Source of the DNA: the human T2T-CHM13v2.0 reference genome, Homo sapiens
Length of the DNA stretch: 64,000 nt
NCBI GenBank assembly: GCA_009914755.4
Contig: CP086569.2
Span: 16,704,001-16,768,000 of the forward strand
Direction: 5' to 3'
Shown here: piece by piece, positions 32,581-32,686 of the stretch
Layout: every line of letters starts with the position of its first letter
Numbering within the stretch: the stretch's first letter is position 1
Position numbers and translations under genes: made by a program
The notes under the pieces: model-generated
Database searches by the model: none
What the model saw: the letters and a program-made list of their open reading frames with translations, nothing else
What the model was told of the DNA's origin: nothing

Positions 32581-32686
32581 CTGTATCTGTTACAGATACA
32601 GACTTGTATCTGTAACAGATACAGACTTGTATCTGTAACAGATACAGACTTGTATCTGTAACAGATACAGACTTGTATCTGTAACA
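32581..32686. repeat. Minisatellite: about 4.5 tandem copies of a 23-bp unit containing a perfect 19-bp palindrome
   Basis: 'ctgtatctgttacagatacagactt gtatctgtaacagatacagactt gtatctgtaacagatacagactt gtatctgtaacagatacagactt gtatctgtaaca'. Within each unit 'tgtatctgt a acagataca' is a perfect inverted repeat (9+1+9), followed by a 'gact' spacer. Confidence 0.95.

What the first reader, a model, noticed from the sequence alone, without database searches (positions are those of the whole stretch)
32581..32686. Tandem 23-bp minisatellite built from a perfect 19-bp palindrome (hairpin/cruciform-prone)
About 4.5 head-to-tail copies of 'gtatctgtaacagatacagactt'. Each unit contains the perfect inverted repeat tgtatctgt-a-acagataca, so every repeat can fold into a 9-bp-stem hairpin. 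The array as a whole can extrude a multi-arm cruciform or slipped structure. It sits immediately 5' of the T-tail of an antisense Alu (32689), so it lies at an Alu insertion junction. Palindromic tandem repeats are known to be unstable (replication stalling, deletions or expansions) and are under-represented in the human genome. I did not recognise the unit as part of any standard repeat consensus.
Basis: seen in the sequence. Interest (0 to 1): 0.5.

Follow-up and report, generated by a model that had tools for sequence, protein, structure and literature searches.

The report
Small palindromic-unit minisatellite beside old Alu
A real 105-base tandem repeat whose 23-base unit is a palindrome sits next to an old Alu; it is the strongest hairpin-forming stretch in the 64-kb window, but it looks like an ordinary small non-coding repeat, not a new kind of element.

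Summary
TRF finds 4.6 head-to-tail copies of TGTATCTGTAACAGATACAGACT at 32582-32686 (98% match, score 203). Copies 2-4 hold the perfect 9-1-9 palindrome. Copy 1 has a T at the centre and 11-nt arms. The fifth copy is cut short. This is the best-folding 130-nt stretch of single-stranded DNA in the window (-38.3 kcal/mol; window mean -10.2, sd 4.3). The favoured fold pairs neighbouring units (a 21-bp perfect stem with a GACT loop), not one hairpin per unit.

The adjacent antisense Alu is AluS-like, 13% diverged, and flanked by an exact 9-bp target-site duplication (AACAATCTT). That duplication overlaps the last 4 bases of the array, so the array is target DNA, not Alu tail. Copies 2-5 are identical over 82 bp, which is unlikely (P about 0.015-0.08) if they were as old as the Alu. 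That points to recent expansion or ongoing turnover.

All four spacers have the same orientation, so growth was by direct duplication (slippage or unequal exchange). I found no coding or RNA-family membership and no other copy of the unit anywhere I could search.

Copy-number variation, primate orthologues and Dfam could not be checked with these tools.

Verdict: a genuine but ordinary small minisatellite with a palindromic unit. Interest is low.

The parts
32582..32686 (.). 23-bp minisatellite, 4.6 head-to-tail copies of TGTATCTGTAACAGATACAGACT
   Evidence: TRF score 203, 98% matches, no indels. Copies are in register at 32582, 32605, 32628, 32651 and 32674. The unit is found nowhere else in the window.
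32580..32602 (.). Copy-1 palindrome TCTGTATCTGT-T-ACAGATACAGA, with 11-nt perfect arms and a T at the centre
   Evidence: (I14). Predicted single-stranded DNA hairpin -7.7 kcal/mol.
32605..32623 (.). Copy-2 palindrome TGTATCTGT-A-ACAGATACA (9-1-9)
   Evidence: Predicted hairpin 8 bp plus 3-nt loop, -5.1 kcal/mol.
32628..32646 (.). Copy-3 palindrome (9-1-9)
32651..32669 (.). Copy-4 palindrome (9-1-9)
32580..32625 (.). Longest perfect inverted repeat: 21-nt arms (32580-32600 and 32605-32625) around the 4-nt spacer GACT, formed between copies 1 and 2
   Evidence: (I5). Predicted -21.1 kcal/mol. It is part of the minimum-energy fold of the whole array.
32674..32686 (.). Truncated fifth copy TGTATCTGTAACA; with copy 1 it forms the 13-bp direct repeat that could seed 23-bp slippage
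   Evidence: The seeding role is inference.
32683..32691 (.). Left target-site duplication AACAATCTT of the Alu; it overlaps the last 4 nt of the array
   Evidence: Identical 9-mer at 33005-33013.
32692..32721 (-). Alu A-rich tail, read as a T-rich run on the + strand, with G/C interruptions
32722..33004 (-). AluS-like SINE body, antisense
   Evidence: Best global alignment is to the recalled AluSx consensus: 13.2% divergence, 5.0% outside CpG. Two Metazoa_SRP (7SL) matches on the minus strand, 64 and 50 bits, below the gathering score.
33005..33013 (.). Right target-site duplication AACAATCTT
   Evidence: The empty site on the Alu-sense strand reads CCATGT|AAGATTGTT, a degenerate L1-endonuclease site.

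Best explanation
This is a neutral, non-coding minisatellite in unique primate DNA.

Proposed history (inferred): the locus first held a short perfect inverted repeat, plus a second copy of its left arm 23 bp downstream (TGTATCTGT-W-ACA ... TGTATCTGT-A-ACA). Short-range template switching during replication is known to create this kind of arrangement. An AluS then inserted by ordinary L1-mediated target-primed reverse transcription, a few bases into the 3' edge of that proto-repeat. Later, replication slippage or unequal exchange between the 13-bp direct repeats duplicated the 23-bp segment head to tail, reaching 4.6 copies.

Why the structure matters: because the unit is a palindrome, the array has two centres of symmetry per period (loops of 1 nt and 4 nt). 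Either single strand can therefore fold into long hairpins between units. Such hairpins on a nascent or template strand stabilise misaligned intermediates and favour further gain or loss of units. That would explain why the copies are so uniform.

What is shown: the anatomy, the folding potential, the Alu target-site duplication, the age contrast and the uniform spacer orientation.

What is inferred: the order of events, the slippage mechanism and the template-switch origin.

No gene product or regulatory role is indicated.
For: - The array and its palindromes are real.
- Single-strand folding is -38.3 kcal/mol, z = -11, the lowest of 2555 windows across the 64 kb. The minimum-energy fold uses stems between units.
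- All four R-arm/L-arm spacers read GACT and none reads AGTC, so every unit is head to tail and growth was by direct duplication.
- The exact 9-bp target-site duplication overlaps the array end by 4 nt, so the array lies in target DNA outside the Alu.
- The Alu is AluS-like, 13.2% diverged overall and 5.0% outside CpG. Copies 2-5 are identical over 82 CpG-free bases, with P = 0.015 at 5% per-site divergence and 0.08 at 3%.
- The flanks are unique within the window.
- The ORFs across and beside the array have no Pfam match, and no Rfam family reaches its gathering score.
- Literature: template switching creates perfect inverted repeats and pseudo-palindromic small insertions in human genomes (PMC5453318; PMC3638132). 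[quoted passage not shown]
Against: - No orthologous or allelic sequence could be obtained, so neither the ancestral state nor present-day copy-number variation has been seen.
- The age argument rests on Alu consensus sequences recalled from memory and on a simple independent-sites model. At 3% divergence the probability is only 0.08.
- The hairpins are short (perfect stems up to 21 bp) compared with the palindromes shown experimentally to stall forks or break chromosomes. Structure may therefore add little beyond ordinary minisatellite slippage.
- Dfam/RepeatMasker was not available, so a repeat-family origin for the unit is not excluded.
Confidence: 0.72

Rival explanations
1. The array is old and stable. 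It reached about 4.6 copies before the AluS inserted into its edge and has been fixed since. Its uniformity reflects chance or gene conversion, not recent slippage, and the palindromic unit has no consequence for stability.
For: The target-site duplication shows that the AACA end of the last partial unit already existed when the Alu inserted. With a lower per-site divergence of 3%, P(no change in 82 bp) is 0.08, which is not decisive. The perfect stems are short.
Against: With the non-CpG divergence measured on the adjacent Alu (5.0%), P = 0.015 for copies 2-5 and 0.03 for the whole array. It is the most uniform array with a period above 10 bp and at least 3 copies in the window.
Confidence: 0.13
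2. The unit is a piece of a catalogued interspersed repeat or satellite (for example an internal region of a DNA transposon, LTR or old SINE) that was amplified locally. On this reading it is an annotated repeat fragment, not a locus-specific minisatellite.
For: Dfam could not be searched. Most primate DNA of this composition derives from repeats, and the window is rich in L1 and Alu.
Against: The unit occurs nowhere else in the 64 kb even with 3 mismatches. The 1-kb flanks on each side have no other copy in the window. My one specific idea, an old MIR element, scored below the mean of shuffled sequences (20.5 against 22.8). Exact-match scans of the metagenome, prokaryote-genome and viral collections returned only one unrelated chance hairpin. 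The sequence appears in no paper of the held library.
Confidence: 0.08
3. The array is a functional hairpin element. One version: it is a young small-RNA precursor, since as RNA it folds into a near-perfect hairpin of about 41 bp. Another version: it is an array of palindromic protein-binding sites.
For: The RNA fold is -62.6 kcal/mol, z = -11.5. An E-value Rfam search gives many miRNA-precursor matches over the array. Template switching has been reported as a source of new miRNA hairpins (bioRxiv 10.1101/2023.04.19.537475, abstract listed).
Against: Every Rfam match is far below its gathering score (for example 40.8 against 101, and 37.9 against 75). The matches fall on both strands and spread over a dozen unrelated families, which is how any long hairpin behaves. 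None passes in the gathering-threshold scan. There is no evidence of transcription. The element is a young tandem duplication with no conservation data.
Confidence: 0.04
4. The array is an assembly or sequencing artefact, such as a mis-assembled or wrongly sized hairpin-forming repeat.
For: Hairpin-forming repeats can cause polymerase and sequencing errors. This is general knowledge and nothing specific here supports it.
Against: The units are in perfect register, the junctions to unique flanks are clean, and the Alu target-site duplication is intact. At 105 bp the array is shorter than a single read.
Confidence: 0.02

Closest known systems
Ordinary human minisatellites / VNTRs (10-100-bp units, as called by TRF)
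   Same: Head-to-tail copies of a 23-bp unit in non-coding DNA. High identity between copies points to slippage or unequal-exchange turnover.
   Different: The unit is itself a perfect palindrome, which a random 23-mer would be with probability about 4e-4. Variable copy number, the defining population property, was not testable.
Inverted-repeat / cruciform-type non-B DNA motifs (short-spacer perfect inverted repeats)
   Same: Perfect arms of 9-21 nt with spacers of 1 or 4 nt. Strong predicted single-strand folding. Short spacers are the more mutable class (PMC12887540).
   Different: This is not a single inverted repeat but a periodic lattice of alternating arms. Many alternative registers compete. 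Extrusion from duplex DNA was not tested.
AT-rich hairpin-forming minisatellites at the rare fragile sites FRA16B (33-bp unit) and FRA10B (about 42-bp unit)
   Same: Tandem units that fold into hairpins. FRA16B DNA forms alternative structures, stalls polymerases, and undergoes expansions and deletions when replicated in human cells (PMC2875025).
   Different: Those units are almost purely A+T, and the fragile alleles are expanded to kilobases (unit sizes and expansion are from my own knowledge of Yu et al. 1997 and Hewett et al. 1998). This unit is 35% G+C and the array is 105 bp. The AT-only 40-bp array at 5070-5226 in this same window is closer to that type.
Palindromic AT-rich repeats (PATRRs) and other long palindromes that drive translocations and deletions
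   Same: Near-palindromic sequence. The array aligns to its own reverse complement over 92 nt at 85% identity.
   Different: PATRRs are several hundred bases of near-perfect AT-rich palindrome (own knowledge). Here the longest perfect arm is 21 nt and the longer arms are 82-89% complementary. A defining feature is not met.
Short template-switch mutations (Loytynoja and Goldman four-point model) and small inverted triplications
   Same: The core arrangement of left arm, inverted arm, left arm (DUP/INV/DUP) is what a there-and-back template switch produces. Such events make perfect inverted repeats and hairpins in one step (PMC5453318; PMC3638132). Small inverted triplications have the same topology and are removed by slippage across their hairpins (PMC13334657).
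   Different: Small inverted triplications average 148/160/148 bp, against 9-11 nt here. A template switch cannot be shown without an outgroup sequence. The later amplification was purely direct, since all spacers read GACT.
Micro- and minisatellites born from Alu poly(A) tails
   Same: It lies directly next to an Alu tail. The tail itself has decayed into a TCTTT-like microrepeat.
   Different: The 23-bp array lies outside the target-site duplication, in target DNA, and its unit is not A-rich. It did not come from the tail.

Membership tests
Minisatellite / VNTR | At least 2 head-to-tail copies of a 10-100-bp unit | tested here: met
   TRF: period 23, 4.6 copies, 98% matches, score 203.
Minisatellite / VNTR | Copy number varies between individuals | not testable with these tools
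   No human or primate sequence collection was available. Scans of the metagenome, prokaryote-genome and viral collections and four exact-ORF look-ups returned nothing homologous.
Inverted-repeat / cruciform non-B DNA motif | Perfect inverted repeat with a short spacer | tested here: met
   Arms/spacers of 11-1-11, 9-1-9 (three times), 9-4-9 (three times) and 21-4-21, all perfect.
Inverted-repeat / cruciform non-B DNA motif | Structure forms in duplex DNA under supercoiling or during replication | not testable with these tools
   Only single-strand thermodynamic predictions are available.
PATRR / long unstable palindrome | Near-perfect palindrome of several hundred bases, strongly AT-rich | tested here: not met
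   The whole array is 105 bp and the unit is 35% G+C. The longest perfect arm is 21 nt, and arms of 44-49 nt are only 82-89% complementary.
AT-rich fragile-site minisatellite (FRA16B/FRA10B type) | Almost pure A+T unit, with alleles expandable to kilobases | tested here: not met
   The unit holds 8 G/C in 23 bases and the array is 105 bp. Whether it can expand was not testable.
Rfam miRNA precursor families (mir-5014, mir-568, mir-466 and others) | Covariance-model score at or above the family's gathering score | tested here: not met
   Best score is 40.8 bits against a threshold of 101. Hits fall on both strands across many unrelated families. The gathering scan of the whole window found nothing.
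Alu-tail-derived microsatellite/minisatellite | The repeat lies inside the element (between the target-site duplications) and derives from the A-rich tail | tested here: not met
   The array lies 5' of and partly within the left target-site duplication, so it is target DNA. The unit is not A-rich.
Interspersed-repeat-derived tandem array (Dfam consensus) | Unit and flanks align to a catalogued repeat consensus | not testable with these tools
   No Dfam here. Indirect evidence: no other copy in the window, and alignment to a recalled MIR consensus was no better than shuffles.
Alu SINE (the neighbour) | About 280-bp dimeric 7SL-derived body, A-tail and flanking target-site duplications | tested here: met
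   281 aligned positions to the recalled AluSx consensus at 86.8% identity. Two 7SL matches. A 30-nt A-rich tail and an exact 9-bp target-site duplication.

The most novel reading that the evidence does not exclude
The locus is a lineage-specific hairpin gene in the making. On this reading, a template-switch event created a perfect inverted repeat and tandem duplication lengthened it. If transcribed, the product would be a near-perfect RNA hairpin of about 41 bp (-62.6 kcal/mol), which could be processed into small RNAs. It would be an example of new miRNA or endo-siRNA birth by template switching plus minisatellite growth. A milder version is that the palindromic unit drives its own amplification, making this a hypervariable, structure-driven VNTR.
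Probability: 0.04. Interest if true: 0.55.

Novelty: new member of a known kind. Interest (0 to 1): 0.2.

Why it matters
If the array varies in copy number, it would be a compact natural example of a minisatellite whose unit is a perfect palindrome with mixed base composition. That would be useful for asking whether hairpins between units, as distinct from simple slippage, set the mutation rate and direction of small VNTRs. With primate outgroups it would also be a clean test of the idea that a short template switch can seed a tandem repeat. As it stands it changes no current view. It is a well-formed instance of known classes (VNTR plus short inverted-repeat non-B motif) beside an ordinary Alu insertion.

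Tried and rejected
1. Origin in an old MIR SINE. By eye the flanks seemed to share ATTGAG, TTACAGAT and GGTT..AGTAAC with MIR at the right spacing. Local alignment of the reconstructed empty site to the MIR consensus I recalled scored 20.5 against a shuffle mean of 22.8. Rejected.

2. Finding other alleles or orthologues in public collections. The 22-mer junction pattern in metagenome contigs gave one hit, L001, which is an unrelated single hairpin with no similarity to the window. The prokaryote genome contigs gave nothing for either the junction or the left-flank 27-mer. The viral contigs gave nothing for the unit or the flank.

3. Reaching human or primate contigs through exact ORF products. 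Four ORFs were tried: 31744-32082 (+), 32453-32767 (-, spans the array), 25345-25713 (+) and 41988-42374 (+). None is on record. I ran no further search on the array-spanning ORF after these failures.

4. Looking for exons that could anchor a gene-based retrieval of orthologues. The long open frames are L1 ORF2 fragments, Alu or low-complexity readthroughs, or ORFs with random-looking composition. Of the ten scanned against Pfam, only one RVT_1 hit was found.

5. Literature search for the unit or junction sequence found no papers.

6. Membership of an RNA family. There were no gathering-level hits, and the E-value hits are generic hairpin matches.

7. A larger inverted-repeat or transposon frame around the array. 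Only Alu-Alu pairs and chance short matches were found.

Full report
**1. What is in the sequence**

Reading 32200-33200 and running TRF shows a tandem array at 32582-32686. It has period 23, 4.6 copies, 98% matches, no indels and score 203, with consensus TGTATCTGTAACAGATACAGACT. The repeat finder puts the copies in exact register at 32582, 32605, 32628, 32651 and 32674.

The unit, allowing up to 3 mismatches, occurs nowhere else in the 64 kb, and none of 100 dinucleotide-preserving shuffles gave a match.

**2. The palindrome**

Copies 2-4 each hold the perfect 9-1-9 inverted repeat TGTATCTGT-A-ACAGATACA. Copy 1 differs at the centre (T, not A), and its perfect arms extend to 11 nt (TCTGTATCTGT-T-ACAGATACAGA, 32580-32602). 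The fifth copy stops after TGTATCTGTAACA and has no right arm.

Because the unit is a palindrome plus the 4-nt spacer GACT, the array is an alternation: left arm, 1 nt, right arm, 4 nt, left arm, and so on. It therefore has two centres of symmetry per period. The longest perfect inverted repeat is 21-4-21, between copies 1 and 2 (32580-32625). Imperfect arms of 44-49 nt (82-89% complementary) span the array. The array also aligns to its own reverse complement over 92 nt at 85% identity.

**3. Is it more than chance?**

One perfect 9-nt-arm inverted repeat is unremarkable. Outside AT-only and simple-repeat tracts the window holds a handful of others with arms of at least 9 nt and loops up to 5 nt. 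The amplification is what stands out. A random 23-mer of this base composition holds such a palindrome in about 4 of 10,000 cases (159 of 400,000).

As single-stranded DNA, 32570-32700 folds at -38.3 kcal/mol, against -11.1 +/- 2.5 for shuffles (z = -11). In a scan of all 2555 overlapping 130-nt windows of the 64 kb (mean -10.2, sd 4.3), the two best windows are both on the array. The next unrelated locus reaches -29.0.

The minimum-energy fold does not use one hairpin per unit. A 1-nt loop cannot close, so a unit hairpin is 8 bp plus a 3-nt loop at -5.1 kcal/mol. The 9-4-9 hairpin between units is -7.0, and the 21-bp stem is -21.1.

**4. The neighbour**

The sequence 32692-33004, read on the minus strand, is an Alu. 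It aligns best to the AluSx consensus (recalled from memory) with 13.2% mismatches, of which 23 of 37 are at consensus CpGs, leaving 5.0% outside CpG. AluY and AluJo fit worse. Rfam's 7SL model matches both Alu monomers on the minus strand at 64 and 50 bits, below its gathering score of 70, as expected for an Alu.

The 9-mer AACAATCTT occurs at 32683-32691 and again at 33005-13, immediately outside the two Alu ends. This is the target-site duplication. On the Alu-sense strand the empty site reads CCATGT|AAGATTGTT, a degenerate L1-endonuclease site (established knowledge of target-primed reverse transcription).

The duplication overlaps the last 4 nt of the array. Two things follow:
- The array is target DNA, not something that grew from the Alu tail.
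- At least the end of the last partial unit existed when the Alu arrived.

**5. Relative age**

The unit has no CpG. If all copies were as old as the Alu and had evolved independently at the Alu's non-CpG divergence (5%), the chance that copies 2-5 show no change in 82 bp is 0.015. The chance of at most one change in 105 bp is 0.03. At 3% divergence these become 0.08 and 0.17.

It is also the most uniform array with a period above 10 bp and at least 3 copies in the window. I take this as moderate evidence that most of the expansion, or the last round of homogenisation, is much younger than the Alu insertion.

**6. How it grew**

The spacer GACT is not its own reverse complement, so it records the orientation of each unit. 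All four spacers read GACT and none reads AGTC. Growth was therefore by direct duplication (slippage or unequal exchange), not by repeated inversion.

The minimal state that could seed this is copy 1 plus the truncated copy. That gives a 13-bp direct repeat, TGTATCTGT-W-ACA, spaced 23 bp apart.

That minimal state has the topology left arm, inverted arm, left arm. A there-and-back template switch during replication produces this topology. Such events are documented to create perfect inverted repeats, hairpins and pseudo-palindromic small insertions in human genomes (PMC5453318; PMC3638132). The same topology at a ten-fold larger scale is described as small inverted triplications, which are lost by slippage across their hairpins (PMC13334657).

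This origin is inference. It cannot be tested without an outgroup. The T/A difference at the centre of copy 1 is equally well explained by a point substitution or by inversion of the spacer.

**7. What it is not**

- No Rfam family reaches its gathering score anywhere in the window.
- With a permissive threshold the array matches about a dozen unrelated miRNA-precursor models on both strands, all at well under their thresholds (all but one at less than half). This is the signature of a generic long hairpin.
- The ORF that runs through the array and the one beside it have no Pfam match.
- The flanks have no second copy in the window.
- An idea that the locus is an old MIR element failed a shuffle test.
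- The array is far from PATRR-type palindromes or the AT-only fragile-site minisatellites in length, perfection and composition.

**8. What could not be done**

None of the collections available here holds primate DNA. Scans with the junction 22-mer, the unit and a unique flank found only one unrelated hairpin. Four exact-ORF look-ups found nothing. The sequence appears in no paper of the held library. I list them as the decisive next steps.

**9. Verdict**

The structural interpretation is right in kind but should be restated as long hairpins between units.

The claim of instability is plausible. It is indirectly supported by the contrast between the uniform array and the decayed Alu, and by general literature: repeats with short spacers are more mutable, and instability grows with copy number (PMC12887540). 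It has not been shown.

The claim that such sequences are under-represented applies to long perfect palindromes, not to 9-21-nt arms. The same window holds a second tandem array of palindromes at 5070-5226.

The most likely reading (about 0.7) is a young or actively turning-over neutral minisatellite. On this reading it was seeded by a small inverted repeat in unique DNA next to an AluS, and hairpins between units assisted the slippage. It is a new instance of known kinds, and its interest is low.

Noticed in passing
window 4990-5230 (core 5070-5226), next to the (TA)n tract at 4792-4896: An AT-only minisatellite with a 40-bp unit, 4.0 copies and 86% match. Its units also hold perfect palindromes: TATTATATAATTATATAATA at 5116 and 5156, and TATAATATAT-G-ATATATTATA at 5089 and 5129. 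It is a second tandem array of palindromes in the same window and is closer in type to the AT-rich fragile-site minisatellites.
   Followed up: partly
window 35511-35610: An AT-rich block with nested perfect palindromes. The best has 15-nt arms around 1 nt (TTATATACTATATAT-T-ATATATAGTATATAA, 35557-35587).
   Followed up: no
window 63270-63902: A 111-bp unit repeated 5.8 times (71% match). By eye the unit looks like an antisense Alu fragment (GGCTCAAG...CCTCCCACCTCAGCC...GAGTAGCTGG). It may be a tandemly amplified Alu-derived segment running towards the window end.
   Followed up: no
window 32269-32295: A perfect 11-5-11 inverted repeat, TAAAGGAAATT-GTCAA-AATTTCCTTTA, lies 300 bp to the left of the array in unique sequence.
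   Followed up: no
window about 31073-31350 (+) and 32692-33004 (-): An inverted pair of Alus about 1.4 kb apart brackets the array's left flank (114-nt arms, 71% complementary). A third, antisense Alu lies at about 30580-30880. The sense Alu carries a (TAAA)n tail at 31358-31404.
   Followed up: no
window 14179-14430 and 41604-41783: Long (AAAG)n/(GAAA)n purine-rich microsatellites with 65 and 45 copies. By established knowledge these are potential triplex-forming mirror repeats. A perfect (AT)27 tract lies at 41415-41468.
   Followed up: no
window 45337-45666 (+), and by eye 46002-46685, 22668-23171, 57989-58447, 21083-21457: L1 ORF2 fragments. One of them matches Pfam RVT_1 at E = 2e-14. 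No convincing host-gene exon was seen. The window is 38% G+C.
   Followed up: partly
L001 1419-1440 (metagenome contig JAESGV010004976.1): The only exact match to the 22-nt junction ACAGATACA-GACT-TGTATCTGT in the metagenome collection. It is a single isolated hairpin in an unrelated contig with no other similarity to the window, so it is a chance match.
   Followed up: yes
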